A DNA stretch of 64,000 bases from positions 195,964 to 259,963 of the forward strand of contig CAWHYG010000007.1 of NCBI GenBank assembly GCA_963833505.1, written 5' to 3'. This DNA is from Candidatus Eiseniibacteriota bacterium (GTDB taxonomy: Bacteria; Eisenbacteria; RBG-16-71-46; CAIMUX01). The notes beneath the pieces are model-generated. The model worked only from the letters and a program-made list of their open reading frames with translations. It did no database searches and was not told where the DNA came from. The translations under genes were made by a program, and so were the position numbers. This document shows positions 2 to 53,700 of this stretch, one piece after another; position 1 is the stretch's first letter, and every line of letters begins with the position of its first letter.

Positions 2-334
2 GGGGCCTACGTCTATCGCGCCGTGGCCCGCGACGCTTCCGGGGTTCGGGAGCTCGAGCATGCCCAGGGCCGGTTCTGGGTCGAGACCATGGGGCCGGAG
101 TTCGCCCGCACATGGACCGACACCGAAGCCCTCACCGAGATCGCGAAGCGGAGCGGAGGCGCCGAGGCCGACCCGTCGGGGCTGGCCGGGCTGCTCGAAT
201 CCATCCCGAGGTCGATCCGCCGAATGGGCCGGATCAAGGAAATCGAAGTCTGGAATCACTGGCTCCTGTTCCTGTGCTTCGTATCCGCGCTGTCCGTGGA
301 GTGGTTCCTGCGCCGGCGCCGCGGGCTCGCTTGA
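2..334 (+). CDS. hypothetical protein, C-terminal fragment (gene starts upstream of window)
   Basis: Frame open from window edge to stop at 334 (same frame as ORF 23..334); C-terminal hydrophobic helix WNHWLLFLCFVSALSVEWFL then RRRR; no family recognised. Confidence 0.35.
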   Translation, partial: GAYVYRAVARDASGVRELEHAQGRFWVETMGPEFARTWTDTEALTEIAKRSGGAEADPSGLAGLLESIPRSIRRMGRIKEIEVWNHWLLFLCFVSALSVEWFLRRRRGLA

Positions 335-336
335 TG

Positions 337-980
337 CCCGTCGACGCCGGTTTCGTCTCGGGGACGGAGCCGTTCGTGCCAGCCCCACGCCCCGGCGCGC
401 CAAAGCCTCCGTGGACCGGGTCGTCGGCCCTGCTCCGTGCGGCTCCGCGCACTTGCGTGCGCTCCCGCCGTACTCCGGCACGGGCCTCCTTCATGGTCCA
501 CTCCGGCTTCGGCGCGCCAGGGCTCTGCTGTGGACCCTGAACGCGGGTCTTGGCTCGTGAACTGAGCCGTTCGTGCCAGCCCCACGCCCCGGCGCGCCAA
601 AGCCTCCGTGGACCGGGTCGTCGGCTCTGCTCCGTGCGGCTCCGCGCACTTGCGTGCGCTCCCGCCGTACTCCGGCACGGGCCTCCTTCATGGTCCACTC
701 CGGCTTCGGCGTGCCAGGGCTCCGCTGTGGACCCTGAACGCCGGTCTTGGTTCGTGAACTGAGCCGTTCGTGCCAGTCCCACGCCCCGGCGCGCCAAAGC
801 CTCCGTGGACCGGGTCGTCGGCCCTGCTCCGTGCGGCTCCGCGCACTTGCGTGCGCTCCCGCCGTACTCCGGCACGGGCCTCCTTCATGGTCCACTCCGG
901 CTTCGGCGCGCCAGGGCTCCGCTGTGGACCCTGAACGCCGGTCTTGGCTCGTGAACTGAGCCGTTCGTGCCAGTCCCGCG
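337..980. repeat. tandem repeat, 197-bp unit x ~3.2 copies, intergenic
   Basis: Motif gagccgttcgtgcc recurs at 367, 564, 761 and 958 (exact 197-bp period); copies nearly identical; unit not a multiple of 3 and contains palindromes (gcgcacttgcgtgcgc, ggcgcgcc). Confidence 0.85.
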
Positions 981-1079
981 CCGTGACTTCGTGATCTCCG
1001 CCGGGCACCGCGGTCCCGATCCTGCTAACCAGATCTTCCCGTCGAAGCGGCGACAACGCCCGCCGCCGAAGGGAGACCG

Positions 1080-2888
1080 ATGTCGACCACATCCCACACT
1101 GCTTTCGCCTTCTCGATCCGTGCCACCCCGGAAGCTCCGCGCGAAACGACGCCGACGTCCCGGACGAGCCGGTCGGACGGCGACGCCCACCGGTCCTGCT
1201 TCAACTGGCGGAGTCTTGTCTTCGCCGCGTGCCTGGCGGCCTGCTGTCTCTCGTTTGCGACGCCGGGAGCCGTCCCGGCCGCGCTCTCGATCAACGAGGT
1301 TTTCTACGATCCGGCCGGCACCGACGCGGGTTTCGAATGGGTCGAGCTGTACAACTCCGGGCCGTGGGCCGAGACGCTGGAAGGAGCCGCGATCGAATCG
1401 GGCGGCGAGTCCGCCTCCAATCCCTGGAAGCAGGTCTGGGCAGGTTCGGAAGGGGAGTGGGTCGATTCCCGAGGCTTCTTCTGGATCGGGGGATCCTACG
1501 CGGGCCGTTCTGCGGACTCGCCCGGGACGCTGGACCTGCGGAACGGATCCGGCGCCGTCCGGCTTCTTCGCGGCGGTCTCGAGTTGAATCGGGTCGGCTG
1601 GGGGAACCTCGAAGACGCGGATCTCTTCGAGGGAGAACCGGCGCGGACCGGGCCGGCAGGGCGAAGTCTCGCCCGCAAGGAGGACGGCCTCGACACCGGT
1701 GACAATCAGGCGGACTTCGAGATCGCCTTGCCGACTCCCGGCCGTTCGAACCATCCCCCGTGCGATCTGGCGGTGCGACTCCTTCGGAGCGGGCGCGGGC
1801 TGCCGATCCCGGAGGGCACGGAAGCGTTCCTGACCGGGGTCCTTCTGGAGAACCTCGGACGATCGGACCTGTCGCCGGCCCGGGTGAGCCTGACGGTGGA
1901 TGGAATCTCGGTGCTGCCTGATCCTGCGCGGACGCTTCCCGACATCGACTCGGGCAGCTCGGTGCTGATCCCGTGGACCGTTCCGCTCCGTTCGCAAGTC
2001 GGACTGGGCCAGTGGACCTGCCGTGCCCGACTGGACGGGGATACCGAGCCGACGGATGACGCTGACACGCTGCGCCTTTGGGTCGGCCCCTCTCCGGTGC
2101 GCTTGCTCAAGCTCGCGCCGCACCCGATCAGTGGCGCGACCGAGTGGCTGGCTCTTCAAGCCGCGGCCGATCCGGGCCGGGCGCCTGCTTCGTCGATCTC
2201 ACTTGAAGGCTGGTCTGTGAAAGATTTGAGCGGCAACAAGATCCGCATTGAATCGGCCGCCCCGGTTCCGCCGGATGGAATCCGGATCGTGGCCCGCGAC
2301 TCGACCGCGATGAAAGCGACGCCGGGCTTCGCGCCGGGGACGCTCCTGGCGTGGTCGGGAACCTGGCCGTCCCTCAATGACGCGGCCGGCCCGGGGGAAG
2401 CCGCCGACTCGGTCTTCCTGCTCGACCCTCACGGGGTCATTGCGGACTGGGCGGCCTACGGTTCGACCGGGCCGGGCGAAGTGTGGATCCGTCTTTCGGG
2501 CGCGGAGCACGGCCCCACCGGTTGGACCGTGGATCCAGCCGCGAGCGCACCCGGAGTCGCGGTCGAAGGCCCCAAGGTCGCCGATCCGGAAGGAGATCAC
2601 TGGGCTCCAGCCGCTCTGGCCCTGGGCCGGGACGCCGGGGGCGCCTGGTTTCGATTGGCCGCCCGGTTGTTTCCGGGCTCCTGGGAGGTTCGCGTCGTGA
2701 ACCTCGAGGGCCGGGAGGTCTGGAGGTTCCACGGCGCCACCGTAGATCGAGCGGACTGCTGGATCCGATGGGATGGGCAAAGCTCCGGTGGAACGAGCCC
2801 GGCCGGCCTTTACCTGGTCCAGGCCCGGATCCGTTCGCAGAGCGGAGCCGAGCAGGTCCTGCGGGCGCCGCTGGTGCTCGACCGATGA
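1080..2888 (+). CDS. lamin-tail-domain (LTD) secreted protein with C-terminal FlgD-Ig-like / T9SS-CTD-like beta-sandwich domain
   Basis: ORF 1080..2888; N-terminal hydrophobic signal-like segment LVFAACLAACCLSFATPGAV; LTD signature INEVFYDPAGTDAGFEWVELYNSG; C-terminal ~70 aa with V-x-L-x-GR-x-V ... WDG ... GLYLV pattern; start codon uncertain. Confidence 0.7.
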   Translation: MSTTSHTAFAFSIRATPEAPRETTPTSRTSRSDGDAHRSCFNWRSLVFAACLAACCLSFATPGAVPAALSINEVFYDPAGTDAGFEWVELYNSGPWAETLEGAAIESGGESASNPWKQVWAGSEGEWVDSRGFFWIGGSYAGRSADSPGTLDLRNGSGAVRLLRGGLELNRVGWGNLEDADLFEGEPARTGPAGRSLARKEDGLDTGDNQADFEIALPTPGRSNHPPCDLAVRLLRSGRGLPIPEGTEAFLTGVLLENLGRSDLSPARVSLTVDGISVLPDPARTLPDIDSGSSVLIPWTVPLRSQVGLGQWTCRARLDGDTEPTDDADTLRLWVGPSPVRLLKLAPHPISGATEWLALQAAADPGRAPASSISLEGWSVKDLSGNKIRIESAAPVPPDGIRIVARDSTAMKATPGFAPGTLLAWSGTWPSLNDAAGPGEAADSVFLLDPHGVIADWAAYGSTGPGEVWIRLSGAEHGPTGWTVDPAASAPGVAVEGPKVADPEGDHWAPAALALGRDAGGAWFRLAARLFPGSWEVRVVNLEGREVWRFHGATVDRADCWIRWDGQSSGGTSPAGLYLVQARIRSQSGAEQVLRAPLVLDR

Positions 2889-4924
2889 TGGCGCGCGCGT
2901 CTGCGGCCTCGAGGCCGGACTTCCTGAGGACGTGCCGATGGCGCCGCGCCGGAATCACGGTTCTTCTCGGCTGGATGCTGTTCGCGCCGCCGGCCCGGGC
3001 CGCGTTCGAGATCCGCCTGGGCGGGCCGATCGGGTCGCCGCTCGTCCCTCCGTTCCTGCCCGCGCCGTTCGAGTGGTTGGATGAGGTGCCGGCAAAGCTG
3101 TCGCCCGGGCTGGCCGTCGGGGCGCTGCACCTCGAGCCGTTCGGGCTTCCGGCCGTGACGTACGACGCCTGCGCCGTCGGCGGCTCGTTTCGCTCCTTCG
3201 CGCCGCATCTGCGCGTGGCGCGCCTCGCAGCAGCCGGCTACGCCGAAGACGAGGTGTCGGCGGGCCTCAAGAGCCGCTGCGGCCTGGCCGGAGAGGCCGA
3301 TCTGCTCGCGACCCAGGCCGGGCCGGGTCTTCAGACCCAATGGGGCATCCACCCGCACGCCGTGGCCACCGCCTCGGTCGGAGCAGCCCGCGGATGGAGG
3401 TTCTTCCGAGGTTCGCTCTGGATTCAGGACGCGCTTCGATCCGGCGGTTCCCGAAAGCTGGGACTGGCGCCCCGCCCGCAGGTTCGCCTCGAGATCCACG
3501 CCGGCTCCGGTTGGGTCCTGGCCCTGGGCAAGGACTGGGGCGTGTCGGGAGTTTCCGGCGGTCGTGCCCTGGCCGCCGTGCAATGGTCGCCCGGTTCGCT
3601 TCTCAAGGTCGGCGAGTGCTGGTCGGGGAGCGGCCCCGAGTGCCACTGGCTCGAGGCCGGCGCAGGCGCGCTGGAAGGCCTGCTGTGGAGCGCCTCAACG
3701 GAAAGCGGAGTTCCAGCGACGCCCGGGATCGCGCTCGCATGCTGCGTCCCGCGCGCCGGGAGGCCGGCCTCGAAGCCGAAGGACCGGTTCCTTTGGATGC
3801 GGCAGGCCTGTGATGGCGATCGGAGATCGGGCGTTCCTGGCGCGGCGGTCCGACTCGCGGATGAGCGCGCAGCGACCGGACCGGCGGACGGGAGGCCCGA
3901 ACCGCCGTCCTCGAAACCCGATTCGATGGCCGTGGATCAACCCCTGACCGAGCCAATGCCCTCGACCCCTGATTCGACGGCGGCGGACCAACCCGTGACC
4001 GACGCGGCGCTCGAAGACCTCGATGGCCCTCTTTTCCGGGACGGGCAGCTTCTGGATCAATGGGCGGAGGCCGACAGCTTCGGCGCCGAAACCGACTCCC
4101 TTTCCCCCGGCGATGGCGGAGCTTGCCGGGCTGCATCCTTGGGGCCTTCCACGGCGGCAAGGTCCCGGACTGCCTTGGGATCAGGCGTTCCGCGTCTTCG
4201 CGACGACCACGCCTGGTTTGGCCCGAACGGAGCCCGGCCCTGGCAATCGGATGACGCCCGGTTCGTGCGGCCGTTGGATCCGGGCGCCCTCAGCCTGCAG
4301 GTTGCGGCGCAAAACGGCCGGCCGCGCGACGCAGTGGGTCGGAGGCGGGCTCCTTCAGACTTCGCGGCTCGAGGCGGTCGCCGCCACCGGAGGTTGCCCG
4401 CTCTTCTTCGGGGTCGGTCTGTTGGCGCGAGCGCCGGCGGTGTTCCTGCAGACTCCCGGGGATTCGTCGGGTCGCGGCCTTCCCGCCGCTTCGAGGTCCG
4501 TGCGCGGCGGGACGCGAGCCGGCCGCGATCCCGATCCGTCTCTCTCGCCCGAAGCGACGGCTCAAGGCTTCTCGATCGGCCTGGCCGGGAGAATCGGCCG
4601 AGGCGTTCGTCTCCTGGCCTCGGAGGAACACGACGGCTCGCCGGTGGGATCGGAGAGTCATTGCATCGGCGTCCGCCGCGACGGGGCCGAATGGTCGGAG
4701 GGCGGTCTGTTGCGCTCGGCGCAACGCGGGCCGGGCGCGGCCGGCATCTGGGTCGCCCGGCGGCGGCCGGGGGAGGAGACGTCCCTGGAAATCGCGCGCC
4801 TGACGCCGTGCCTTGGTCAGGCCGGCGTTCGCTGGAGCCGGTTCCTGACCGGGGATCGCGGGCGCCGGCTCTGGTGGGACCTGGTCGTCCGGCAGGCTCT
4901 GCTTCCCTTGGATCGCTTGGATGA
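2885..4924 (+). CDS. hypothetical secreted protein (probably the 5' part of a longer frameshifted gene ending at 5693)
   Basis: ATG at 2885 overlaps the upstream stop (ATGA coupling); signal-peptide-like RRAGITVLLGWMLFAPPARA; codon third-position GC bias is clear up to ~4080, then the frame decays into Arg-rich translation; true 3' end uncertain. Confidence 0.4.
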   Translation: MMARASAASRPDFLRTCRWRRAGITVLLGWMLFAPPARAAFEIRLGGPIGSPLVPPFLPAPFEWLDEVPAKLSPGLAVGALHLEPFGLPAVTYDACAVGGSFRSFAPHLRVARLAAAGYAEDEVSAGLKSRCGLAGEADLLATQAGPGLQTQWGIHPHAVATASVGAARGWRFFRGSLWIQDALRSGGSRKLGLAPRPQVRLEIHAGSGWVLALGKDWGVSGVSGGRALAAVQWSPGSLLKVGECWSGSGPECHWLEAGAGALEGLLWSASTESGVPATPGIALACCVPRAGRPASKPKDRFLWMRQACDGDRRSGVPGAAVRLADERAATGPADGRPEPPSSKPDSMAVDQPLTEPMPSTPDSTAADQPVTDAALEDLDGPLFRDGQLLDQWAEADSFGAETDSLSPGDGGACRAASLGPSTAARSRTALGSGVPRLRDDHAWFGPNGARPWQSDDARFVRPLDPGALSLQVAAQNGRPRDAVGRRRAPSDFAARGGRRHRRLPALLRGRSVGASAGGVPADSRGFVGSRPSRRFEVRARRDASRPRSRSVSLARSDGSRLLDRPGRENRPRRSSPGLGGTRRLAGGIGESLHRRPPRRGRMVGGRSVALGATRAGRGRHLGRPAAAGGGDVPGNRAPDAVPWSGRRSLEPVPDRGSRAPALVGPGRPAGSASLGSLG

Positions 4925-5693
4925 CGGCGACCCGCCCGGCGCCCCCGCCAGGACGCTTTCGTATCGAGGGGCGGAGCTGGGCGCGTCCTCCGGGCGCCAG
5001 TCGGCCGGGGCTCAGGTTCTGTGGGAGCGGCGCGCGGCGTGTCTCGATCCGGCCTCCGGCGATCCGACTACGCCGCGGCTCCGCGAAGCCGAGGTCCGGC
5101 ACCTGCGGCTGTCCGGACAGGGATTCGTGACCGCGGGAATCGCCTGGACCTTCCGCGCCGACGCCCGGGACCGGACAGCCGTCACCGTGGGATTGCCGGA
5201 CGCGCCGTTTGAATCCGGGTTGTCCACCAGCACGAGCCGGATCCGAGCGCGCGCGACGCTCGAATCGACCGCCGGCGGCGGCCTTCTCGTCGGGCTCCCG
5301 TCCGGATATGGGCTCGAGCTGGGAGAAGAGGCGCTCCGGTCATCTTCCTCGGGAGGCTCCGATGCCGCCGTGCCTGCCCTCTGGGCCGGCGCCTGGCACA
5401 AATGCGCGATCCTGCGGCGGATCGACGGAGCGTTCGGTTTCGTCGTGATTCAACTTCCCGGATCGCGAAGCCTCTCGCTTTCCCCGTTCTGGATCGGAGG
5501 GAGCCGGTTCCCGGTTCGGGCCGGCGGATTCTGGAGCGCGGTCCGGGTGTCCGGGCGGCTCGGTCCCCTGGCCTGGTGGCTTCGCGGGTTTGTTCCCATC
5601 CGTCCGGAAGGAAGTCGTTCCACCGGGTCTGCCCGTCGGAATCCGGGAGGTGGATTCGAAGCCAGCGTGCATTTCGAAAGTGGAGCGGCCTGA
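4023..5693 (+). CDS. hypothetical protein, beta-rich/aromatic-rich C-terminal region (possible outer-membrane domain); probably the 3' part of the gene starting at 2885
   Basis: ORF 4023..5693; strong GC3 codon bias from ~4550 to the stop; overlaps the preceding ORF in another frame, so a frameshift or two overlapping genes; true start uncertain. Confidence 0.4.
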   Translation: MALFSGTGSFWINGRRPTASAPKPTPFPPAMAELAGLHPWGLPRRQGPGLPWDQAFRVFATTTPGLARTEPGPGNRMTPGSCGRWIRAPSACRLRRKTAGRATQWVGGGLLQTSRLEAVAATGGCPLFFGVGLLARAPAVFLQTPGDSSGRGLPAASRSVRGGTRAGRDPDPSLSPEATAQGFSIGLAGRIGRGVRLLASEEHDGSPVGSESHCIGVRRDGAEWSEGGLLRSAQRGPGAAGIWVARRRPGEETSLEIARLTPCLGQAGVRWSRFLTGDRGRRLWWDLVVRQALLPLDRLDDGDPPGAPARTLSYRGAELGASSGRQSAGAQVLWERRAACLDPASGDPTTPRLREAEVRHLRLSGQGFVTAGIAWTFRADARDRTAVTVGLPDAPFESGLSTSTSRIRARATLESTAGGGLLVGLPSGYGLELGEEALRSSSSGGSDAAVPALWAGAWHKCAILRRIDGAFGFVVIQLPGSRSLSLSPFWIGGSRFPVRAGGFWSAVRVSGRLGPLAWWLRGFVPIRPEGSRSTGSARRNPGGGFEASVHFESGAA

Positions 5694-6164
5694 GCCATGG
5701 CTTCACGGGTCGAACGGCCCGCCTGAGCCGTGGCTTCACGGGCCAAACGGCTTCAAACGCGGATGCCGGAATCGAGAAGGGGCCCGATCCGTGCGAACGG
5801 ATGGGCCCCGATTCTCTTTGTGCGGGCTTTCCGGGGCTTTGAGAGCCGCTTGTGGCGGCAGTCCAGGGGACCTCCGGGGATCGCCCGAATCCGAAGGTGC
5901 GTCCACCCCCGGTTCCGCGCTTCCCGAGCTGTGATGTCAAGAAGTCGGTGACGGGTCCCGGATTCTCTTGCGCCCCGCCGTTCCGAGCGCCGGCAGCGCT
6001 GCCGGCCCGGATCGATCGGTCCCATTCGACGATTCCGTTTTGGTCCGGAATCGCCGCCGGCCGCGACGCGGCGACAAGATGGGCGGGAAACTAGATGGGC
6101 CCCGGGCCCCTGTCAAGCGGCCTGTGAGCCAAAGCGCTTGTGCTCGATTCTCCCTGGATCGAGC

Positions 6165-20317: not shown

Positions 20318-20440
20318 CAGCGGCGGGGAGCGCCGCCGAACGGCCCGGACGCGAAGTCGGCGGGAGCGCCGGCGAACGGGCCCGGGCGTGAAGTCGGCGG
20401 GCAGCGCCGCGGAAGGGCCCGGGCGCGGCGGCGCGCCTCC
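20318..20440. repeat. imperfect ~35-bp tandem repeat x3 in the sucC upstream region
   Basis: gcgccgccgaacggcccggacgcgaagtcggcggg / gcgccggcgaacgggcccgggcgtgaagtcggcggg / cagcgccgcggaagggcccgggcg. Confidence 0.5.
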
Positions 20441-23052: not shown

Positions 23053-23604
23053 GTGAACCCATCCGGGCCCTTCGTGCTGTCGCTGCACGACCTCGAAGAG
23101 GGGGAGACGCACCTGGAGATGGTCGGAACCGGTTCCGACCTGGAACTCTCGCGGGACGAGCTGGCGCTGTCCCAGCCGGTCGTGCTGCGCGCCAAGGTCT
23201 TCCGGGCCGCCTACCATGTGGAGGTCCAGGGGACCCTCCTGACGACCGCGGATCTGGTCTGTGATCGCTGTCTCGAACCGATCCGGCGCGCGCTCGAGAT
23301 CCCGTTTCGGGTATTCTCCGAGCGGCAGGAGACCCGGGACCACCGGACCAGACAGGAAATGCGTGAAGAGGATCCCGGGATCGTCTACCATGATGGGCAG
23401 TTTGTGGTTCTGACCGACGAAGTGAGACAGGAGCTTCTGGTGGAGAAGCCCTGGCACGTCGTCTGCCGGCCGGACTGCCTGGGGCTCTGCCCGCGCTGCG
23501 GAGGCAACCGCAACGTGAGCGGCTGCACCTGTCCGGATCGCCGGGATCAGGACAGCCCCGACGCGGAACGCATGGACTCGAAACCAAGAATTGAGTCGGA
23601 GTAG
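23053..23604 (+). CDS. yceD: YceD/DUF177 family protein (large-subunit rRNA accumulation factor)
   Basis: ORF 23053..23604, 183 aa; C-terminal CxxC...CxxC (CDRCLEP ... CLGLCPRCG); conserved position upstream of rpmF-plsX-fab operon. Confidence 0.8.
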   Translation: MNPSGPFVLSLHDLEEGETHLEMVGTGSDLELSRDELALSQPVVLRAKVFRAAYHVEVQGTLLTTADLVCDRCLEPIRRALEIPFRVFSERQETRDHRTRQEMREEDPGIVYHDGQFVVLTDEVRQELLVEKPWHVVCRPDCLGLCPRCGGNRNVSGCTCPDRRDQDSPDAERMDSKPRIESE

Positions 23605-25510
23605 GAACCATGGTCACCCATAGCCCCCTCCACAGAACCGGACGAGCGGGACTACCGCATCCGGCTCCCACCTTGGGTCATCACGCCCAGGCGCTGATTG
23701 GGCCAGGGTTGACAGATCCGGGGAATTGGGAGCCATTGAGTCACCAAGCGTTTCCATCGGACGACCGTGAGCCGCGTCGTCTGACTTCGGCGGCGGAGAC
23801 TCCGCCCCCATCGCCAGGACACCGCGTTGCGGAAGGCCGAGAGGGCCGGTCCGTTTCGAGGCACCCCGTAATAGCGGTAGTGCCCGAGCAGGACCGTCCG
23901 CAGGTAGGCTCCTTGGTCCGGGACGGGGTCGTGCAGTCGCCTCCGGAGTTCGCTGCCGATCTCCTTGAGCTTCGCCTGCCACCGCTTGCGCATCGTCTGC
24001 CGCAGCACCGTGAACTTCCCCCGCCGGGTCTTCCCGCAATGTGCGTGAAGCCAAGGAAGTTGAAGGTCGGGGGCTTCCCGTCCCCCCGATCGCGTCGGTT
24101 CTTCTCGGCGAAGCGACCGAACTCGATCAGGCGGGTCTTTTCCGGGTGCAGCTCCAGCCCGAACTTTGCGAAGCGTTCGCGCAGCTCGACCAGGAACCGC
24201 TCGGCCACGTCTCGATGCTGGAACCCAACCACGAAGTCATCGACAAAACGCACCACGACCACGTCGCCGCGCGCTTGCTTCGTTCTCCATCGCTGGATCC
24301 ACAGGTCGAGAGCATAGTGCAGGTAGACGTTGGCCAGGAGGGGACTGATCGACCCGCCCTGAACCGTGCCCACCCTCCCGGCGATGCGCTTCCCCTCCTC
24401 CAGCACGCCGGCCTTGAGCCACTTCAGGATCAAGCGCACGACCCGCTGGTCCGCGATCCGGTGCTCGATGAATTTCCGCAGCCATCCATGGTCGAGGGTA
24501 TCGAAGAACGACCGGATGTCGGCGTCGAGCACCCAGCTCACCTTCTTCCGTTCGATCCCGACCGTGAGTGCATCCAGCGCTTGATGCGGGCTGCGTCCCG
24601 GTCGGGAACCATAGGAAAATCCGAGGAAGTCGATTTCGTAGATGGCGTTCAACACCTCGACCACCGCACGCTGGACGATCTTGTCCTCCAGCGTCGGAAC
24701 TCCGAGCGGCCGCTGCCGCCCGTCGGTCTTGGGGATGTACGCTCGCCGAACCGGCTTCGCCCGATACGCTCCTCGCTTCAGCCTTTCGGAAAGGTCTCGG
24801 AGGTTCTCTTCCAAGTTTTCCCCGTAGTGCTGCCAGGTCTCGCCGTCGATTCCTGCCGCCGCGTTCTTCTTCAGGGCGAAGTAGCCCGCGCGCAGTCGAT
24901 CCACGTCGTAGACATGGTGCAGGAGCGTGGTGAACCGCTGTTTCCTGTCCTTTCTTGCCGCCTGTCGTACCCGCTCCAGTCCGCTGGGCACGCACTCCCG
25001 GCTCTGTGTCCGGTGCGTGTCGGCTTCGAGCGAGTTCCCCTTGGCCCGACCCCTTCCCTCCATCACCTCCGCCACCGGTCGCCCGGCACCGTTCGGCGAC
25101 TTCCCCGGTACTACGGGTCGGTCCGACCTCCCACCTTCGTCCATCATCGGCGTGCGCCTTTCGGCTTCCCGATGCGGTCTGGGCATACCCTGCTTCCAGA
25201 CGAGGGCGGGATCTCCCGGTTCCCATGCAAGGTGACTCCGAACGTGCTCAGGGCCTCTGACCGCGCGGGGTCCCTCGGCGTCTCGCCATGGCGACGCCCA
25301 GGGTGTGGCCTTCCGCTAACCTCCACAGCGTCGGCACCCCGAAGTGATTCATGGATTACGCGGCTCAATACCCGGCCCGCCCGTACCCCTGTCAACGCTT
25401 CACTCCCGGCCTCGCGGCCGACAGCGCATGACTCGGGGCCATCGTGGGTGGCTGGCCCTTCGATGTATGACTCTTTCATTCACTTCACCTCGCCGGTTTG
25501 ACCGGCGCAC
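23605..25510 (-). mobile_element. bacterial group II intron (~1.9 kb) in antisense orientation between yceD and rpmF
   Basis: Minus strand starts GTGCGCCGG (GUGYG 5' consensus) at 25510; domain-V-like hairpin GAGCCGGAUGCGG-UAGU-CCCGCUCGUCCGGUUC at 23635..23667 with AGC triad; encodes an RT/maturase ORF; 3' boundary approximate (+/-5 nt). Confidence 0.8.
23652..25186 (-). CDS. group II intron-encoded reverse transcriptase/maturase (apparent -1 frameshift after FLGFTHI, near 24010-24040)
   Basis: ORF 23741..25186 carries RT motifs (AAGIDGETW, RRAYIPKTDGRQRPLGVPTLEDKIVQ, VVRFVDDFVVGF, FLGFTHI); ORF 23652..24008 in another frame carries the maturase/X domain (LRQTMRKRWQAKLKEI ... LLGHYRYYGVP); junction reads attgcgggaagacc where ggaaag would restore the frame. 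Confidence 0.85.
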
Positions 25511-31419: not shown

Positions 31420-32265
31420 ATGGGCTGGATCCAGCAGCTATGGCGGCGCCTTCAAGGCGGGCCAAAGCGCCAGGCCGCGGACATTCAAGGCATCCTGGAC
31501 GCCTTTCAGAGGGAGATCGGGCTCAGGTTCAACGACCAGGCCCTTCTCCGCCAGGCGCTGACCCATCGATCCTTCCTGGGGAGCAACGGAGCCGACCCGC
31601 GCCTGTCCAACGAGCGGATCGAGTTCCTCGGCGACGCCGTGCTCGAGCTGGCCGTGATCGAGTTCCTCTATCGCCTGTATCCGGAAGACCGCGAAGGAGC
31701 CCTGACGAAGAAGAAGGGGTTGCTCGTTTCCCGGGAGGTGCTGGCCCACTGCGCGGAGCGGATGCGTCTGGGGAACTACATCCTTTTGAGCGACGCCGAG
31801 CGGGATTCAGGCGGTCGGGCCCGGGCTTCGATCCTCGCCGACACCTTTGAAGCGGTGGCGGGCTCGATCCATCTCGATCACGGATTGGTCGAGGCCCGAC
31901 GCTTCGTGCGCGAGCGGCTGCTGGTGCATGCCGACAGCATCCTGAAGGATCAGTCCCTCTCGAATCACAAGAGCCTCCTGCAGGAGCGCGTCCAGGCCCG
32001 GTTCAAGACGCATCCTCGCTATCGGGTGGTCACGGAGAGCGGCCCGGACCACATGAAGGTGTTCACCGTGGAGGTCTCGATCCGGGGAATGCTCCTGGGG
32101 CGCGGGCAAGGGAACAACAAGAAGGAGGCGGAACAGGCCTCGGCGCAGAACGCCCTCTTCCGCCTCGGCCAGATCGAGCCCGACCTTCCCCCGGCAGAGC
32201 CCGCAGCGGCGCACCGCGAGACGCCGCCGGCCGGGACCGGCGGGGATCCAAGCCCATCCCCTTGA
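31420..32265 (+). CDS. rnc: ribonuclease III
   Basis: ORF 31420..32265; RNase III signature ERIEFLGDAVLELAV and C-terminal dsRBD; Pro/Ala-rich C-terminal tail. Confidence 0.9.
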   Translation: MGWIQQLWRRLQGGPKRQAADIQGILDAFQREIGLRFNDQALLRQALTHRSFLGSNGADPRLSNERIEFLGDAVLELAVIEFLYRLYPEDREGALTKKKGLLVSREVLAHCAERMRLGNYILLSDAERDSGGRARASILADTFEAVAGSIHLDHGLVEARRFVRERLLVHADSILKDQSLSNHKSLLQERVQARFKTHPRYRVVTESGPDHMKVFTVEVSIRGMLLGRGQGNNKKEAEQASAQNALFRLGQIEPDLPPAEPAAAHRETPPAGTGGDPSPSP

Positions 32266-32403
32266 GGCGCGTCCCCGGGGAGCCCTTGCGCCTCAAAGCC
32301 TGCTCGGACCTGCTTCGTCGGCGCCTCGGAGCCCTTGCGCGCCAAAGCCTGCACGGACCGTGGACGGCCGATCATCCTCCGCGGGAATCGCCGATCGATG
32401 CCT

Positions 32404-33786
32404 CTACAGCTTGAAGTTGGCGCCCAGAAGGAAGCGCTTGTCCGTGGTCTGCTCGATCGTGGTGGCGCCCGACACCGCAGAGGCGCCGAGCCGGGTGAAG
32501 CCGCCGGTGATGTAGGCTGCGTCCAGTGACATCGCCGGGTCGACCTGCACGCTCGCGCCGAAAGTGACGTAGCGCCGATCGTGGTCGAACTGCGCGGGCA
32601 CGGCCTCCCCCGCGAAGACATCGGTGGCGATCATCCGGTAGGCGACCGGCTGGGAGATGAATCCCGCCCTCACGCTGACCGGCGTCTTGGGAATGTCGTA
32701 CTGGGCTCCGAAGCGCAGATCGACGGTCGATCGGTAGGCGTAGGAATCGCCGGTTCGGATCGACTCGTGGTCTTCCTGGATCTGGGTCCAGTCGGCGAAC
32801 TGGGCGTCAGCCGAAAGGAGCAGCCCGCGCAGGGCCCCGTGAGGCGCCTGATAGGCGAGCCCGGCCGACAGGCGCGGCGGGAAATAGAACGTCTGCCGGA
32901 TCCGCTCCGATCCGTAGGGGAAGCTGTCCAGACTGTCGAGGCCACCGTTCACGACGATGCGCGCGCTGTCGCTCTGCGTGCGCTCGAGCGTGATCGACTC
33001 CGGCAGGTGCACCACCAGCCCGAATCCGAATCCGGTGTCGGAGTGGAGATAGGCTCCCAGGTCTCCGGTCACTCCGGTGAAGTCGCCGTGCCAGGTGGAG
33101 TATTCCTGGTCCGAGTCGAGGCCGTCGGCCGAGCCATAGCTGAACGTCCGGCTGAGGTCGGAGCTGCCGGACAGAACGGTTCCGCTCAGCCCGAGGGAAA
33201 GCGTCGGCGTGACCGCCAGGCCGAGGCCGATCCGGTAGGCCCCGACGCTGCCGTTCTCCTCGATGGCCTCCATCTCGTCCTTGACCGGTCCGCCCGAGCC
33301 CGAGCGCAAGTAGGACGAGTCCAGCGGGATCTCGCGGTCGTAGGAGAACCCCACGACGAAGGAGCCTCTCCAGGTGGGCACGGGATACGCGATGCCAAAC
33401 GAGTTGATTCCGCTTTCATCCGCGGTGGAGGAGGTCGGATTTCCGAAGTACCGGTTGTCCTGCTCCAGGGTCGCGTGCGAGAAGGTCCCGCCGATCTGGG
33501 TGTTCTGGATCTGGCTCAAGCCAGCCGGATTGTAGCTCAGGGCGGTGTAGTCCCGGGCGACGCCGGTCCACGCGCCCCCCATTCCCATGGCCACGGCCCC
33601 TGCTCCGGATTGGGAGACGAGGGGAAGGTCATCGGGAATCTGCGCCTCTGCTCGACCGGTCCAGGCGAGCGCGGCCAGAAGCAGAAACGACGCGGCCGTC
33701 CGGATGCTCGCCCCTGGAGCGCCTCGGCGGCTCGCCGCCGGCACCGGAAACGGATGACTCGCTTGGGAACTGCTGGATACCGTCAC
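32404..33786 (-). CDS. FadL/OmpP1-family outer-membrane beta-barrel protein
   Basis: ORF 32404..33786, 460 aa; signal peptide; N-terminal hatch-like motif GAGAVAMGMGGAWTGVARDYTALSYNPAGL (NPA motif); beta-strand-rich; ends ...LGANFKL. Confidence 0.65.
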   Translation of the reverse strand: MTVSSSSQASHPFPVPAASRRGAPGASIRTAASFLLLAALAWTGRAEAQIPDDLPLVSQSGAGAVAMGMGGAWTGVARDYTALSYNPAGLSQIQNTQIGGTFSHATLEQDNRYFGNPTSSTADESGINSFGIAYPVPTWRGSFVVGFSYDREIPLDSSYLRSGSGGPVKDEMEAIEENGSVGAYRIGLGLAVTPTLSLGLSGTVLSGSSDLSRTFSYGSADGLDSDQEYSTWHGDFTGVTGDLGAYLHSDTGFGFGLVVHLPESITLERTQSDSARIVVNGGLDSLDSFPYGSERIRQTFYFPPRLSAGLAYQAPHGALRGLLLSADAQFADWTQIQEDHESIRTGDSYAYRSTVDLRFGAQYDIPKTPVSVRAGFISQPVAYRMIATDVFAGEAVPAQFDHDRRYVTFGASVQVDPAMSLDAAYITGGFTRLGASAVSGATTIEQTTDKRFLLGANFKL

Positions 33787-47718: not shown

Positions 47719-50700
47719 TTGAAGCGACGATCCGGAATGATCCGGCGCCGAAGCTCCGGAGTCTGCGCCCTCTTCCTGCTCCTTCTGTTCGCGGCGGGGC
47801 CAACCGGTCCCCGGAGAACTGGAGCGGAGTCGGAGTTTGCCGTGCCCGGCGGCGCGGCCGCTCATCCGGCGGACGGGGCGGGAGCTCCCGCATCCGATCC
47901 GGGGCGGGGTGCGGATGAGACGCAGCCTGATTCCGCCAAGGTCGCGCCTCCGGACACCCTGCCCGCGCCTCGCGCCAGGCCGATTCCCCCGGTCTCGAAC
48001 TCCGCGGCTCGGCCGGATTCCGCGCGGTCGGTGGGTCCGGACACGCTGCCGGCGTCCCATCCCACGCCGGCTCCGCAGGCGGCCACGACCGCGGCTCGGC
48101 CGGATTCCGCGCGGTCGGTGGGTCCGGACACGCTGCCGGCGTCCTATCCCACGCCGGCTCCGCAGGCGGCCACGACCGCGGCTCGGCCGGATTCCGCGCG
48201 GTCGGCGCGTCCGGACACGCTGCCGCCTTCCAATCCGGCGCCGGCTCCGCAGGCGGCCACGGCCGCCGCTCGAGCCGATTCCTTCCGGGTGGCCCTGCCC
48301 GACACCCTGCCGATCCCAGCCCCGGTGGAGGAGATCACCTCCTCCGACACCAGCCGAGCCGGCCTACCTGTTGAGAATCCAGCGCAACCGGACACCTCCA
48401 AGGGCCGCGGGACCAAAGCGGCTCCGGTGGCGGCTGCGGGAGTCCTGGCTGCCGCGCTCGCCGCCGGCGATACGGCGGCCGTCCGCCAGGCGTTCGCGCA
48501 ATTTCCGTTCTGGGTTCCGCCCCCGGGACTGTGCCCGAGTCAACAGGCGTTTCTCTTTCGGGTCGTCTCCGAGGAGCGGTGGGCCGACGTCATCCGGACC
48601 GGAGGGTTTCTCAAGCCTGAGATCCAGATGCGTGAAGACAGCCTGACCGCGCGGCTCATCATCCCGGAGGCGCCTCGCCTGAGCCTTGCCGACCAGGTGA
48701 CCCAGCAGGCGTCACCCCACGCCGACGACGGCGCGATCGAGCTCACGCGGACGGTCCGGGACACGCCGGTGGAGCCTCCGGTTCGAATGACCCAGGCCGA
48801 ATACCTGTCGCGTCTGACCCAGACGCAGTTCCGGCAGTTCTGGAAGGAGACGGTGGATCAGAGCCTCCGGAACAACGCGACCCAGGAAAACGGCCGGAAA
48901 GGGCTGCTCCGATTCGATCTGCCCGTCCAGCTTCCCTCGCAGCTTCAGACCATCTTCGGGGCCGGCAATCCCGATCTGTCCTGGCGCGGAAGCGAGAAGA
49001 TGTCGTTCGGCGGCACTTCCATCTGGCATCCCAATCTGATTGCCAACGAAATCGCCGCCAAGGAGTCGAAGTTCCCCCAGCTCGAGATGAAGCAGGACCT
49101 GAACTTCTCCCTCACCGGCACGATCGGGGACAAGGTCTCGGTGGACCTCGATCAGGCGACCGACACGGCCACGCCGCTCGCGAACAAGATCAAGATCCGC
49201 TACAAGGGATACGACGACGAGGTCGTCCAGAAGATCGATCTCGGCAACACCAGCCTGAGCCTGCCGGGCACGCAGTACGCCACCTACAGCGGAAACGTCG
49301 AAGGCCTGTTCGGAATCAACGCCCTGTCGCGCCTGGGCCCGGTCGACGTCACGACCATCCTCTCGAAGCAGGAGGGGCAGAACGAGTCGAAGACGGTGAG
49401 CGCCGCGGCCGAAACGAAGACGATCCAGATCAACGACATGGACTACATCGCGGGGAAGTACTTCTTCCTGCGCACTCCGAACGGTTGTCCCTGGCAGCTC
49501 GACCAGAACTCGCTCAGCGTCTTCCTCGACGACAAGAACGGATCCAACGACGTGCAGCAGGGAGCGATTCCGGGGAAAGCGACCCTGGACGGCAACTCCG
49601 CCGACGGCGGCCACAGCTATCCGGGCATGTTCTACCGGCTCCAGCCGGGACCGCCTCCCGACGGCCAGTACGAGATCCAGAATGACGTCTACACCGGCCA
49701 GCCGGTGCTGATCCTGAATGACGCACTGAACGACCGGTACGCCCTCGCCGTGACCTACGCCGGCTGGTATCTCGACGCCAACCTCCACCCCGACCAGGGC
49801 AGCCCGATCCACGTCGGTCAGATCGCGGCGGACACGCTGCGGCTCGAGTTGCTCCGTCCTTCCGTCTCCGATCTCTCGACCAATCGGAGGCAGGGAACCT
49901 GGGGCCCGCTGGCCAACCTGGAGCTTCGCAACATGTACGATCTCCAGGCTCGAGGGATCCTGAAAGCCGGGTTCCAGCTTCACATCCGGTTGAAGAGCTC
50001 AAGCGGCGGAGTCGTCGAGCCCGACCGGATCGGGCAGACCACCTTCCTGCAGATGACGGCTCTCGACCTGTCCAAGCAGACCGACACCGGTTACTCGCCC
50101 GGCCGCGACGACCTGGTCGACGACCAGTTCATCAGCTATCAAAACGGGATTCTCCACTTCCCGGACCTTCGACCCTTCGATCCCGACTCGTCCGACCTGG
50201 GGTTGCCTCCGGTACGCTGCAACGGTTTCGCCTACGCCCGCTATGGTCCGGCCAGCCCGGCCGATCCGACCGATTGGGTGAACTCGACCCTCCGGACCTA
50301 TGACACCCAGACGGCCTACCGCCCCAGGGTGCTGCCGATGTCGCCCGACTCGGCCAGCCTGTTCCGGGCGCCCGCCATCTATGACAACGTGATCCGCCAG
50401 GACACCGACAGCCGCTACTACCTGGAGATCACCTACAGCAGTCCGGTCAGCAAGATCGATCTCGGCGCCGTCGGGATCCTGGCGGGCAGCGAAACGGTGA
50501 CGGCGGGGGCGAGGACCCTGGTGCGGGACCGCGACTATCGGATCGACTACGACGTCGGGGAGGTCGAGATCCTTCCGGCCGCCGGCATCACCGAGTCGGA
50601 CCAGATCCACGTGACCTACTCCTATCTGCCGTTCGCCGGCACGGGCGGACAGAAGACGCTGTTCGGCACCGCCGCCTCCTATGCGCCCGAGCAGGGCAAT

Positions 50701-53700
50701 CTGTCCTTGTCGACCGCCTGGCTCTTCCAGAGCCAGGGCGGCGTTTCCGGCATCGAAGGGAACCGGCCCCGCCTGGGCCAGGAGCCGTCCCGCACGCTGG
50801 TGGGAGAGGTGGCCGGAACGTACAAGACCGACTCCAGGCTGATCACGAAGCTCATCGACGACATTCCGGGAGTGGACACGCGCCTCCCGACCAAGATCGA
50901 CCTGGCGGTCGGAGCCGGCATCTCCGTGCCGAACCCGAACACGAAGAACGTCCTTTACATCGACGACTTCGATGGAGTGAAGGACGACACGCCGCTCAGC
51001 ATGAACCGGCTGTCCTGGCGATGGAGCTCCATCCCGGGATCGGACCTGACCGGCGCCGCCCTCCAGACGAAGGCGAATCGACATGGGGAGCTGTGGTGGT
51101 ACTCCCCGCGCAACATCGTGCATGAGAGGGATCTCCAGCCGACGCTGGACCAGCAGGAGGGCGAGAACAGCCACCAGGTCATGATGCTGCAGTTCTATCC
51201 GCACGTTCCGGACACGGACAGTCCCGACAGTTCCTGGGCCGGGCTCACCACGCCGATCTCGGTCACCGGCCAGGACTTCTCTCGCGCCCAGTTCCTCGAC
51301 ATCTGGGTCAACGACTTCATCCAGTGGCCCGACGTCCTGCACCGGCGCCGCGGCAAGCTGCACATCGACCTGGGCAAGGTGAGCGAAGACGCCATGTGGT
51401 ACAAGAACGACCCGTCCGCTCCGGCTGACCAGTGGAAGGTCGTGCTCCCGAATGGAAAGCTCGACACCGAGGACGCCAACCGGGACGGCAAGCTCGACCA
51501 GACGGAGGACGTTGGTCTGGACGGCATCAAGCACGGCGATCCGGGGGCCGATCCCAACGACGTCTATCAGTACGATGACAGCGCCCCGGAGTCCGACCAG
51601 AAGTACGCGCACGTCAACGGGACCGAGGGCAACCAGATTCTCGACACCGAGGACCTGGACGGCGACGGCCAGCTCGAGACCCAGAACTCCTACTTCGAAA
51701 TCACCGTGGATCTGGGGGACTCGACCCTGTGGCAGACCGACGTCTACCGCGACTATCCGGGCTACCGTGGCAAGCTCGATTCGTCCAACGGCTGGCGCCG
51801 GATCCGCATCCCCCTGCAGGTGGACACCCTGGTCCATCCGGTGTACGACTTCGCCGCCGGTCCTCCGGTCTGGGCCAAGATCTTTCACGCGCGCCTCTGG
51901 GTCTCCGGGCTCTCGGCTCCGACCCAGATCGAGCTGGGCGGCATCGACATCACCGGCAATCGGTGGTTCCAGAGCCAGATCGCCGACTTGAGGGGCCGCC
52001 TGCTGCCCGACAGCGCCCTGGCGCCGGGGGAGAGCTTCTTCATCGGGACGGTGAACAACAAGGACGACGCGTCCATCTATCAGTCGCCGGTGACGATCCA
52101 GAAGGACGCCAACAACATCCCCGAGCAGGAGCAGTCCATCACGCTGAACCTCACCGAGTTCCAGCCCGGGCACGCGGCCACCATCTACCGGACGTATCCG
52201 GACCGCCAGGACTACACCTTGTACAACGACATGCAGTACTACGTGAGCGGATACAACCAGGGGAGCTCCAATCTGGTCTGCGGGGTGCGGCTCTGCCGGG
52301 ACGCGGTCTCCGATTCGGCCAACTATTACGAGTATCAGATCCCGGTGAAGTCCGAATGGCAGCTCGTCGACATCAATCTGGCCGCCCTGAGCCGGCTGCA
52401 GCTTTTGCGTCCCGACACGGTCAGCGGCATGGTGGCGCAGGATCTCGGTAACGGCGTCCGCATGATCCGGCGGGGAGCGCCCTCGTTGAACAGCGTCCAG
52501 AGGATCAGCTTCGTCGTGTACAACACGGGGAGCTTCCCGGTGACCCAGGGGAGCGTCTGGATCGACGAGCTGCGTCTGACCGACGTCAAGAAGGACGTGG
52601 GGCTCGCGGCCCGCATGCACCTGGGGGCGGATCTCGGCGGCCTGGCCCGTCTGGACCTGAGCTACCAGCGCACGGGGGCCGACTTCCTCACGGTGGGAGC
52701 GGATCGCGGCAGCGGCACCACGACGACGACCTGGGGTTTCGCCGGGTCGAGCGACAACCTGTTCGGATTCGGCGACCGTCTGGGCCTGAACCTGCCGGTC
52801 CACGTGACCTACAACGACACGCGGGCCGTGCCGAAGTTCCGCCCGAACAGCGACCTCATCCTGGACACGCCCCGGACCGGCGACATCTCGGTGACCAACA
52901 GCGAGGAGTTTTCGTTCACCGCCCAGCGGAAGCAGTCCCCGGAGTGGTGGAGCCGGTATCTGCTCGAGCCCTTCTCCTTGAGCGGGCGCGTGAATCGGTC
53001 GCTCGATCTCGAGCCCACCAGCCAGGACACCTCGGTGACCCGGAGCGGCTCGGTGGCCTGGAACTTCTCTCTCGAGCAATGGGGGGACATCGGGCTGAGC
53101 CAGAAGATGAAACTCCGCCTGATCCCCACCATGCTGTCCGCCACGGTGACCGGCGCGACCACGCAGGACCGGCGCTATTACCGGAGCGACGTCAATTCGG
53201 ACTACGCGCCTCAGCCCAGCCAGGACCTGACCTCCGCTGGCCTCGCCTTGTCTGCGGCTGCCCGGCCCTTGACGCCGGTGACCTATCGCATCGACAGCAC
53301 GCGCGATCTCATGCTCCACGAGGGGGAGATGAAGCTGTTCGGCATGAACCTGGGGGAGGAGACGGCGCGCCACCACCAGCTCAGCGCTTCAACCGACATT
53401 CCAATCCTGAGACAGATCCTGTCCCCGAGGGTGTCCTGGTCGGGCAACTCCGGTCTGGCCGCCGCCATCCAGACCTCGGTGCTGCCGGGGGAACCCGCGC
53501 GGCAGCTCTCCTTCAACAACTCGCGAACGACGGACTGGGGGGGACGCCTCTCGCTGCCCGATCTGTTCCACGGCCTGACCACCTTCGGGCGCCGTCGCGC
53601 CGCCCAGGACACAACCGGCGGAAAGGGGTCGCGGGCCAATGGAGCTTCACCGCTCCCCGGGTCTCTGGCTCCGAACGCGCCCCCGCCCGCGCCTTCCGGA

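What the first reader, a model, noticed from the sequence alone, without database searches (positions are those of the whole stretch)
337..980. Exact 197-bp tandem repeat array (3.2 copies) with internal palindromes in an intergenic gap
The unit recurs at 367/564/761/958 with near-identity. A 197-bp period rules out CRISPR and coding repeats (not a multiple of 3; the six-frame ORFs through it just echo the repeat). Each unit holds GC-rich palindromes (gcgcac-ttgc-gtgcgc, ggcgcgcc) that could form stable RNA or DNA hairpins. It sits between a gene 3' end and the first LTD gene; it may be tandem structured-RNA units, a protein-binding array or a recombination hotspot.
Basis: seen in the sequence. 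Interest (0 to 1): 0.6.

Follow-up and report, generated by a model that had tools for sequence, protein, structure and literature searches.

The report
Tandem palindromic repeat inserted between genes
A 197-bp non-coding unit built around a long hairpin-forming palindrome is repeated three times between two genes of an uncultured Eisenbacteria genome; relatives lack it, so it is most likely a lineage-specific selfish or neutral repeat like those known from other bacteria.

Summary
Window 344-982 carries a 197-bp tandem repeat: 3 full units plus two partial ones, 97.5-98.5% identical rather than exact. Each unit is a 135-nt imperfect palindrome plus a 62-nt linker.

The array is non-coding. 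It matches no Rfam family, and its six-frame translations have no protein relative among 5.8 billion sequences. Motif scans of genome, metagenome and viral contigs gave only chance-level or no hits, and BLAST against plasmids found nothing.

An independent short-read contig breaks exactly where a 31-mer graph should, so the repeat is real.

The decisive result is comparative. In the nearest relatives the same two genes lie 69-75 nt apart, against 745 nt here. About 670 nt, including the array, is therefore a lineage-specific insertion, placed between a stop codon and a conserved promoter-like motif.

A 32-nt module from the palindrome arms recurs as a 2-copy tandem at 32281-32378. A third tandem repeat fills another spacer that is tight in relatives.

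My best reading is a REPIN/MITE-like extragenic palindrome amplified in tandem, the architecture described for REPIN clusters in Pseudomonas. It has at most generic hairpin effects on the read-through transcript. It is a new member of a known kind, and interest is low.

The parts
2..334 (+). 3' end of the upstream gene (C-terminal 110 aa of a ~750-aa membrane protein; stop TGA 332-334)
   Evidence: Translation. It is 68% identical to the C-terminus of the 762-aa protein encoded directly upstream of the LTD orthologue in L046.
344..366 (.). Diverged partial unit at the left edge of the array
   Evidence: The Tandem Repeats Finder array starts at 344. About 15 of 23 positions match the end of the unit.
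367..563 (.). Repeat unit 1 (197 bp)
   Evidence: 97.5% identical to unit 2. It has 5 substitutions against unit 2 and 3 against unit 3.
564..760 (.). Repeat unit 2 (197 bp)
   Evidence: Reference copy. Its three private changes are all C>T opposite G in the + strand fold.
761..957 (.). Repeat unit 3 (197 bp)
   Evidence: 98.0% identical to unit 2.
958..982 (.). Partial fourth unit (25 nt, 92% identical) at the right edge of the array
   Evidence: It is also present in the independent Logan contig L001.
389..523 (.). 135-nt imperfect palindrome of unit 1 (42-nt arms 389-430 and 482-523; tip hairpin GCGCAC-TTGC-GTGCGC at 447-462)
   Evidence: Inverted-repeat pair I1. It appears as one long hairpin in the fold of the whole spacer.
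586..720 (.). 135-nt imperfect palindrome of unit 2 (tip hairpin 644-659)
   Evidence: RNA -100.9 kcal/mol for the unit, z -4.0; minus strand -103.5, z -3.4; DNA -38 kcal/mol, z -2.8.
783..917 (.). 135-nt imperfect palindrome of unit 3 (tip hairpin 841-856)
   Evidence: Inverted-repeat pair I2.
983..1010 (.). Non-repeated stretch between the array and the conserved motif; no counterpart in relatives, so probably part of the insertion
   Evidence: Comparison of spacers.
1011..1027 (+). Spacer motif cGGtcccgatccTGCTa, conserved in all orthologous spacers (GG-N10-GC, sigma-54 -24/-12-like); possible promoter of the LTD gene
   Evidence: Alignment A1 shows GG and GCT invariant in 5 spacers, with TGGCAC in L052/L053. 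This is weak: the window's own site has 4 mismatches to the consensus, and consensus matches in the window are at chance level.
1080..2888 (+). Downstream Lamin-Tail-Domain gene (602 aa)
   Evidence: Pfam LTD, E 1.3e-11. Orthologues are 41-44% identical with conserved gene order.
32281..32378 (+). Second locus of the same sequence module: two head-to-tail 49-nt units in the spacer between rnc and a convergent FadL/TodX-like gene, each carrying GGAGCCCTTGCGC[CT/GC]CAAAGCCTGC[T/A]CGGACC
   Evidence: BLAST hit, sequence, motif count of 5 against 0.07 expected and arm alignment with nhmmer. About 26 of 32 positions match the reverse-complemented right arm of the unit, counted by eye from that alignment. 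The spacer is 138 nt here against 8 nt in relative L051.

Best explanation
The array is a lineage-specific piece of non-coding DNA. A roughly 135-143-bp palindromic extragenic element, bounded by two inverted copies of a ~32-nt sequence module (REPIN/MITE-like design), lies between the stop codon of one gene and the promoter-like region of the next. Together with about 55-60 bp of adjacent sequence it has been amplified head-to-tail to 3.2 copies, by unequal recombination or replication slippage.

Shown: the array is real, it is non-coding, it is an insertion relative to every available relative, it is palindromic, and its module recurs at a second extragenic site.

Inferred: the array persists because the site is permissive, not because the cell needs it. 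Its main physical effect would be that any transcript reading out of the upstream gene carries three very stable ~135-nt stem-loops. These lack U-tracts, so they would act as barriers to 3'-5' decay, as pause sites or as processing sites (as REP, BIME, ERIC and Correia elements do), not as canonical terminators. They would partly insulate the upstream gene from the LTD gene. Copy number is expected to vary between strains.
For: - Array: 344-982, period 197, 3.2 copies, no indels.
- Independent support: the break point of a 31-mer assembly is at exactly the predicted position 944, with 0 mismatches over 4.6 kb.
- Non-coding: the period is not a multiple of 3, and the six-frame translation of three units has no hit among 5.8e9 proteins.
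- Insertion: the gene order (750-aa membrane protein, then LTD, then a ~930-aa protein, then GIY-YIG) is conserved in L046-L049. There the spacer is 69-75 nt and the conserved motif CCCGATCCTGCTA sits about 8 nt after the stop codon. Here the spacer is 745 nt and the motif is at 1013.
- Palindrome: 42-nt arms, hairpin z-scores of -4.0, -3.4 and -7.0. Both strands fold about equally well, and arm mismatches favour neither strand, which fits a DNA-level palindrome.
- Module family: the arms and the 2-copy tandem at 32281-32378 share a 32-nt module.
- Genome habit: three spacers that are tight in relatives are filled with tandem repeats here (745 vs 69-75 nt, 183 vs 25 nt, 138 vs 8 nt). The syntenic DNA of relatives L050 and L046 has essentially no tandem repeats.
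- Composition: 72% GC, close to the genome's 68%, so there is no sign of foreign origin.
Against: - Only 64 kb of a genome whose main contig is 2.45 Mb could be read, so dispersal of the element is not shown. There are two loci only, and the second shares just the 32-nt module.
- No target-site duplication could be identified.
- No transposase or RAYT gene was found among the window ORFs tested.
- The single module is not itself a hairpin (z 0.1-0.7) and carries no GTAG tag, so it is not a classical REP.
- All five transitions between copies are C/T on the + strand, and all three private changes of unit 2 keep a G-U pair in the + strand RNA fold. This is a weak hint (n=5) of constraint on a + strand RNA, or simply of transcription-associated deamination.
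- The effects proposed for the transcript are inferred from other systems, not measured.
Confidence: 0.6

Rival explanations
1. Local minisatellite with no mobile-element origin. A stretch of spacer DNA that happened to be palindromic was duplicated in place by slippage or unequal crossing-over. The similarity to the second locus is then convergent or trivial.
For: No target-site duplication, no transposase and no further full copy in 64 kb. Two other unrelated tandem repeats (37 bp and 49 bp) fill other spacers of this genome, which suggests a general tendency to tandem duplication.
Against: Relatives have only about 8 nt between the stop codon and the conserved motif, so there was no local template for a 197-bp unit. 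A 32-nt module about 81% identical at a second extragenic site (identity counted from that alignment), with a motif count of 5 against 0.07 expected, is hard to explain without a shared source.
Confidence: 0.15
2. Functional structured RNA. Each unit encodes or forms a ~135-nt stem-loop RNA that is selected for a role, either as a cis-regulatory element of the operon transcript (an RNase III or decay-control site) or as tandem small-RNA genes.
For: Very stable folds well beyond shuffled controls. All transitions between copies are C/T on the + strand, and the three private changes of unit 2 keep G-U pairs in the + strand fold. The right arm can alternatively pair with the linker (17 nt, 82%, pairs I9-I11). 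The related module lies directly after the RNase III gene.
Against: No Rfam family matches, even at E<=10. The unit has no promoter-like or terminator-like site. The minus strand folds as well as the plus strand. The two arm mismatches that could form wobble pairs do so on the minus strand, opposite to the copy variants. The array is absent from all relatives, so there is no conservation and no covariation. The module alone has no structure.
Confidence: 0.12
3. Protein-binding DNA array. The dyad-symmetric boxes (GCGCAC-N4-GTGCGC, GGCGCGCC, GTGGACC/GGTCCAC) are repeated every 197 bp. They would serve as upstream activator or nucleoid-protein sites for the conserved sigma-54-like promoter at 1011-1027, or as gyrase/IHF-type sites as in BIMEs.
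For: The array ends about 30 bp upstream of a motif with invariant GG-N10-GC in five orthologous spacers. The nearest 16-bp dyad (841-856) would lie roughly 190 bp upstream of the inferred start, a usual distance for enhancer-binding proteins (established knowledge of sigma-54 promoters). What is conserved between the two loci is a sequence module, not a structure.
Against: The sigma-54 assignment is weak. The window's site has 4 mismatches, and consensus matches in the window are at chance level. Relatives work without any such array. No enhancer-binding protein gene was found among the window ORFs tested. A 197-bp spacing is not an integral number of helical turns.
Confidence: 0.08
4. Assembly artefact: the copy number, or the whole array, was created by mis-assembly.
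For: The window carries at least one single-base indel relative to the short-read contig (GG vs G at 4300/4301), so the long assembly is not error-free. Copy number could not be checked against reads.
Against: The copies carry private substitutions and no indels. An independent 31-mer assembly breaks exactly at the predicted branch point 944, which requires at least two different unit junctions in the reads. There are 0 mismatches over 4.6 kb between the two assemblies. A 639-bp array is far shorter than long reads.
Confidence: 0.05

Closest known systems
Tandemly repeated REPIN clusters of Pseudomonas fluorescens SBW25 (Bertels & Rainey 2011, PMC3116915)
   Same: Extragenic location. Each unit is a long hairpin made of two inverted sequence modules plus flanking sequence. 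Units are nearly identical and head-to-tail. The period is similar (a 184-bp peak there, 197 bp here), as are the size (up to 4 REPINs, >700 bp there; 3.2 units, 639 bp here) and the lineage-specific distribution.
   Different: REPs are themselves short palindromes with a GTAG-type tag, occur in hundreds of copies and are tied to a RAYT transposase. Here the module alone does not fold, there is no GTAG, only two loci are seen in 64 kb, and no RAYT was found in the window. There is no sequence similarity.
BIMEs (bacterial interspersed mosaic elements) / REP arrays of Escherichia coli
   Same: Arrays of palindromic units in spacers between co-directional or convergent genes. They are transcribed as part of operon mRNAs, where the hairpins stabilise upstream mRNA and bind gyrase or IHF (own knowledge of the REP literature; summarised in PMC3733652).
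   Different: BIMEs alternate 35-40-bp REPs in opposite orientation with short linker motifs. Here the unit is 197 bp with one 135-nt palindrome, all units point the same way, and the organism belongs to an unrelated phylum.
MITE-type palindromic elements that fold in transcripts (ERIC/IRU 127 bp in enterobacteria, Correia elements in Neisseria)
   Same: 100-150-bp imperfect palindromes with terminal inverted repeats, inserted next to genes and co-transcribed, forming long RNA hairpins that affect mRNA decay or RNase III processing (own knowledge).
   Different: Those elements are dispersed single copies with target-site duplications (TA for Correia elements). Here no duplication was identified, and the element is known only as a tandem array plus one module-only locus.
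MIRU-VNTR minisatellites of mycobacteria
   Same: Tandem repeats in spacers inside gene clusters of a high-GC bacterium, likely variable in copy number (own knowledge).
   Different: MIRUs are 46-101 bp, lack long palindromes and often carry short in-phase ORFs that overlap the neighbours' stop and start codons. Here the period is 197 bp (not a multiple of 3), and the + strand has stop codons in two frames per unit.

Membership tests
REP / REPIN | The basic module is a short (20-40 nt) palindrome that forms its own stem-loop | tested here: not met
   The 56-nt stretches around the module fold no better than shuffles (z 0.11 and 0.72).
REP / REPIN | Conserved GTAG (or CGTC) tag at one end of the module | tested here: not met
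   No GTAG or CTAC in the unit. There is a single internal CGTC at unit position 56, not at a stem end. The criterion is taken from PMC3733652.
REP / REPIN | [quoted passage not shown] | tested here: met
   42-nt arms, 74% complementary, 51 nt apart. The long hairpin appears in the MFE and centroid folds.
REP / REPIN | Many dispersed extragenic copies in the genome | tested here: inconclusive
   Two extragenic loci in the 64 kb available. The rest of the 2.45-Mb contig could not be read.
REP / REPIN | Cognate RAYT (IS200/IS605-like tyrosine transposase) gene flanked by the repeats | not testable with these tools
   No transposase domain in the window ORFs scanned against Pfam. RAYTs are single-copy, so 64 kb cannot decide this.
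MITE | Terminal inverted repeats | tested here: met
   Arms 389-430 and 482-523 and their equivalents in the other units. The shared module extends to about 385 and 527.
MITE | Target-site duplication flanking the element | tested here: inconclusive
   Inspection of the array ends and comparison with the empty sites in L046 and L047 gave no clear direct repeat.
MITE | Related autonomous insertion sequence with the same ends | not testable with these tools
   None in the window. The arm-motif scan of genome and metagenome contigs returned only single hits that do not extend beyond the pattern (chance level), and two arm-motif scans of viral contigs returned nothing. BLAST of the whole array against plasmids found nothing.
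Known structured RNA families (Rfam 15) | Match to a covariance model at or near the gathering score | tested here: not met
   Only the group II intron passes in the window. In 1-1500 the best match is 20.9 bits against a threshold of 50 (ybhL, minus strand, E 1.2).
CRISPR array | Short repeats separated by unique spacers | tested here: not met
   The whole 197-bp period is repeated at 97.5-98.5% identity, so there are no unique spacers.
Intrinsic terminator | GC-rich hairpin followed by a U/T tract | tested here: not met
   No terminator-like site within 335-1079 on either strand. The unit has no T run.
Coding repeat / MIRU-like in-phase ORF | Period a multiple of 3, or an ORF in phase with its neighbours, with protein relatives | tested here: not met
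   197 = 3x65+2. The + strand has stop codons in the read-through. No protein relative exists for any frame.

The most novel reading that the evidence does not exclude
The array could be the first sighting of a new family of mobile or recombinogenic palindromic elements in Candidatus Eisenbacteria. Such a family would be defined by a ~32-nt sequence module (not by a REP hairpin) and would have been co-opted here. In that reading, three 135-nt stem-loops or dyad-symmetric sites at 197-bp spacing, placed directly upstream of a conserved sigma-54-like promoter, act as an insulator or enhancer that uncouples the LTD gene cluster from the upstream gene.
Probability: 0.1. Interest if true: 0.45.

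Novelty: new member of a known kind. Interest (0 to 1): 0.2.

Why it matters
Extragenic palindromic repeats and their tandem clusters are well described in Proteobacteria but essentially unstudied in uncultured FCB-group phyla such as Eisenbacteria. This locus shows that a genome of that lineage fills otherwise tight spacers with tandem, hairpin-forming repeats; three cases were seen in 64 kb.

In practice, such arrays break short-read assemblies, as the Logan contig shows. They are candidates for strain typing by copy number. They may also change the coupling of neighbouring genes. Nothing here bears on a long-standing open question.

Tried and rejected
**Searches for relatives that found nothing**
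- The arm motif GCGCGCCAAAGCCTNNNNGGACC gave 16 single hits in genome contigs and 28 in metagenome contigs, spread over unrelated taxa. None extends beyond the pattern, so these are chance hits. The source genome is not in those collections.
- Two arm motifs gave no hit in viral contigs.
- BLAST of the whole array against plasmids gave no match.
- A concatenated six-frame translation of three units against 5.8e9 proteins gave no hit at E<=0.01. This argues against a coding role and against any called ORF in a related repeat elsewhere.

**Feature scans**
- Rfam: nothing at gathering score in the window, nothing at E<=10 in 1-1500.
- ARAGORN found no tRNA or tmRNA.
- The sigma-70 promoter and intrinsic terminator scan found nothing inside the array.
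- An nhmmer profile of the arms, run against the window and all fetched loci, found no further copies beyond the two loci.

**Ideas considered and dropped**
- REP-like module: the module alone does not fold.
- DGR template/variable repeats or a retron: there is no adjacent reverse transcriptase. The only one is the group II intron protein 23 kb away. The differences between copies are not adenine-specific.
- Integron attC sites: no cassettes and no integrase.
- Sigma-54 consensus scan: 14 matches in the window against 15 expected. The promoter idea therefore rests only on the conservation seen.

Full report
**Observation**

Tandem Repeats Finder reports one array at 344-982 with period 197, 3.2 copies, 96% matches, no indels and score 1180. 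Full units start at 367, 564 and 761. A 25-nt partial unit follows at 958-982, and a diverged 23-nt partial unit precedes at 344-366.

The copies are not exact. They differ pairwise at 3-5 positions, all substitutions.

They belong to one 135-nt imperfect palindrome per unit (389-523, 586-720, 783-917). Its arms are 42 nt long and 74% complementary, and its tip is the perfect hairpin GCGCAC-TTGC-GTGCGC. A 62-nt linker completes the unit.

**Is the array real?**

The window comes from a 2.45-Mb contig held by NCBI/ENA. An independent Logan assembly of run ERR11594402 yields a 4.6-kb contig that starts at window 944. I computed that 944 is exactly the first position from which all 31-mers of the window are unique. 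That is where a de Bruijn graph must break if the reads contain the different unit junctions written in the window.

The two assemblies otherwise agree, with 0 mismatches and one 1-nt indel over 4.6 kb. The substitutions between copies are therefore credible. Copy number itself could not be checked against reads.

**What it is not**

- The period is not a multiple of three. The + strand read-through has stop codons. A query made of all six frames of three units found no relative among 5.8 billion proteins.
- No Rfam family matches at gathering score in the window, and none matches meaningfully at E<=10 in 1-1500.
- There are no tRNA-like genes.
- The array holds no sigma-70-type promoter and no hairpin-plus-T-tract terminator.
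- There are no unique spacers, so it is not CRISPR-like.
- No relative of the unit was found. The arm motif gave only chance-level hits in genome and metagenome contigs and none in viral contigs. BLAST of the array against plasmids found nothing.

**Structure**

- One unit folds as RNA at -100.9 kcal/mol on the + strand (z -4.0) and -103.5 on the minus strand (z -3.4).
- The palindrome folds as DNA at -38 kcal/mol (z -2.8).
- The whole 745-nt spacer folds into three identical long hairpins (z -7.0).
- Strand evidence is mixed. The two arm mismatches that could be wobble pairs are wobbles only on the minus strand (read directly from the sequence). The three private changes of unit 2 are C>T opposite G, and so are wobbles on the + strand. 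All five transitions among the copies are C/T on the + strand. With so few events this does not discriminate between RNA constraint and transcription-associated deamination.

**Context and comparison**

SucC places the organism in Candidatus Eisenbacteria: the best named hits are 71-74% identical.

The closest LTD orthologues are only 41-44% identical, but gene order is conserved. A ~750-aa membrane protein is followed by the LTD protein, a ~930-aa protein and a GIY-YIG-like protein. The C-terminus of the membrane protein is 68% identical to the window's upstream fragment.

In those relatives the contigs run uninterrupted through a 69-75-nt spacer. A conserved motif, CCCGATCCTGCTA, sits about 8 nt after the stop codon. 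In the window the same motif is at 1013, 678 nt after the stop. About 670 nt, comprising the array and some 30 nt to its right, is therefore an insertion specific to this lineage.

The conserved motif keeps GG-N10-GC in all five orthologous spacers, and reads TGGCAC in two of them. This resembles a sigma-54 -24/-12 promoter. The evidence is conservation only: the window's own site has four mismatches, and consensus matches in the window are at chance level.

**A small family and a genomic habit**

A BLAST of the unit against the window found one other place, 32281-32378. It holds two head-to-tail 49-nt units in the spacer between rnc and a convergent FadL/TodX-like gene. Each unit carries a 32-nt module that matches the reverse-complemented right arm at about 26 of 32 positions (aligned, counted by eye). 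The core motif occurs 5 times in the window against 0.07 expected.

The module alone does not fold better than shuffles and has no GTAG tag.

That spacer is 138 nt here against 8 nt in relative L051. A third, unrelated tandem repeat (37 bp x 2.9 at 20321-20427) fills the spacer before sucC, which is 183 nt here against 25 nt in L050. The syntenic 18-21 kb of relatives L046 and L050 contain essentially no tandem repeats. This genome thus tends to fill tight spacers with tandem, GC-rich repeats.

**Explanation**

The best-supported reading is a REPIN/MITE-like extragenic palindrome: two inverted copies of a sequence module around a spacer. It was amplified head-to-tail together with adjacent sequence, at a permissive site between a stop codon and the next gene's control region.

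The same architecture is described for REPIN clusters in Pseudomonas fluorescens SBW25. [quoted passage not shown] REP clusters reiterated with flanking DNA are also reported across many phyla (PMC3733652).

Membership in the REP/REPIN family is not claimed. Two defining features, a self-folding module and a GTAG/CGTC tag, were tested and not met. Dispersal and a cognate RAYT could not be tested.

The functional consequence is inferred from what REP, BIME, ERIC and Correia elements do. Read-through transcripts of the upstream gene would carry three very stable stem-loops without U-tracts. These would act as decay barriers, pause sites or RNase III targets, and would partly insulate the LTD gene, which may have its own promoter.

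The rivals are listed with their evidence: a local minisatellite, a selected structured RNA, a protein-binding array upstream of the sigma-54-like motif, and an assembly artefact. None is excluded outright, but each lacks positive support.

**Verdict**

This is a new sequence family of a known kind of bacterial repeat, of low general interest. It is a useful marker of repeat dynamics in a poorly known phylum.

Noticed in passing
window 32281-32378: Two head-to-tail 49-nt units lie in the 138-nt spacer between rnc (31420-32265, +) and a convergent FadL/TodX-like outer-membrane gene (32404-33786, -). They share a 32-nt module with the arms of the 197-bp unit. The same spacer is 8 nt in relative L051.
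   Followed up: yes
window 20321-20427: A 37-bp x 2.9 GC-rich tandem repeat (83% matches) fills the 183-nt spacer upstream of sucC. Relative L050 has a 25-nt spacer there. The sequence is unrelated to the 197-bp unit, and its fold is only mildly better than shuffles (z -2.2).
   Followed up: partly
window 1011-1027 (and L046 6184-6200, L047 ~3891-3907, L052 ~441-457): A conserved motif lies directly upstream of the LTD gene in all orthologous spacers, with invariant GG-N10-GC(T) and TGGCAC in two lineages. It looks like a sigma-54 -24/-12 promoter, followed by a conserved CCGTCG box. The window's own site is a weak match, and the consensus is at chance frequency in the window.
   Followed up: partly
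L053 1790-2045: In another lineage, the same position (between the stop codon of the upstream gene and the TGGCAC motif) carries a ~250-nt insert. It has long inverted repeats (cagaatccagaagtcagaatccagg / cttctggattctgacttctgaatcctg), a scaffold gap and a duplicated gene end. This looks like a separate MITE-like insertion or a strain polymorphism at the same permissive site.
   Followed up: no
window 4300-4301: The window reads GG where the independent short-read contig L001 reads G. This is the only difference in 4.6 kb. The extra base splits the ~930-aa gene downstream of the LTD gene into two ORFs (2483..4924 and 4023..5693). It is probably a residual long-read indel error or a real frameshift variant.
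   Followed up: partly
window 23595-25474 (minus strand): A complete group II intron (Rfam D1-D4-6 at 185.6 bits; domain V-VI at 45.5 bits) carries a reverse-transcriptase ORF at 23741-25186. It is inserted between the yceD/rpmF region and plsX. Relatives L050 and L051 have no intron there.
   Followed up: partly
window 47719-55227: A giant ORF of 2,502 aa contains coding tandem repeats: 87 bp x 3.2 at 48002-48282 and 12/36 bp x 15/5 at 53832-54017. It was not characterised.
   Followed up: no
window 60844-60934 and 5688-5751: Two short tandem repeats: 30 bp x 3.0 (93% matches) inside or next to the rbfA region, and 33 bp x 1.9 at the end of the gene downstream of the LTD gene. Neither was examined.
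   Followed up: no
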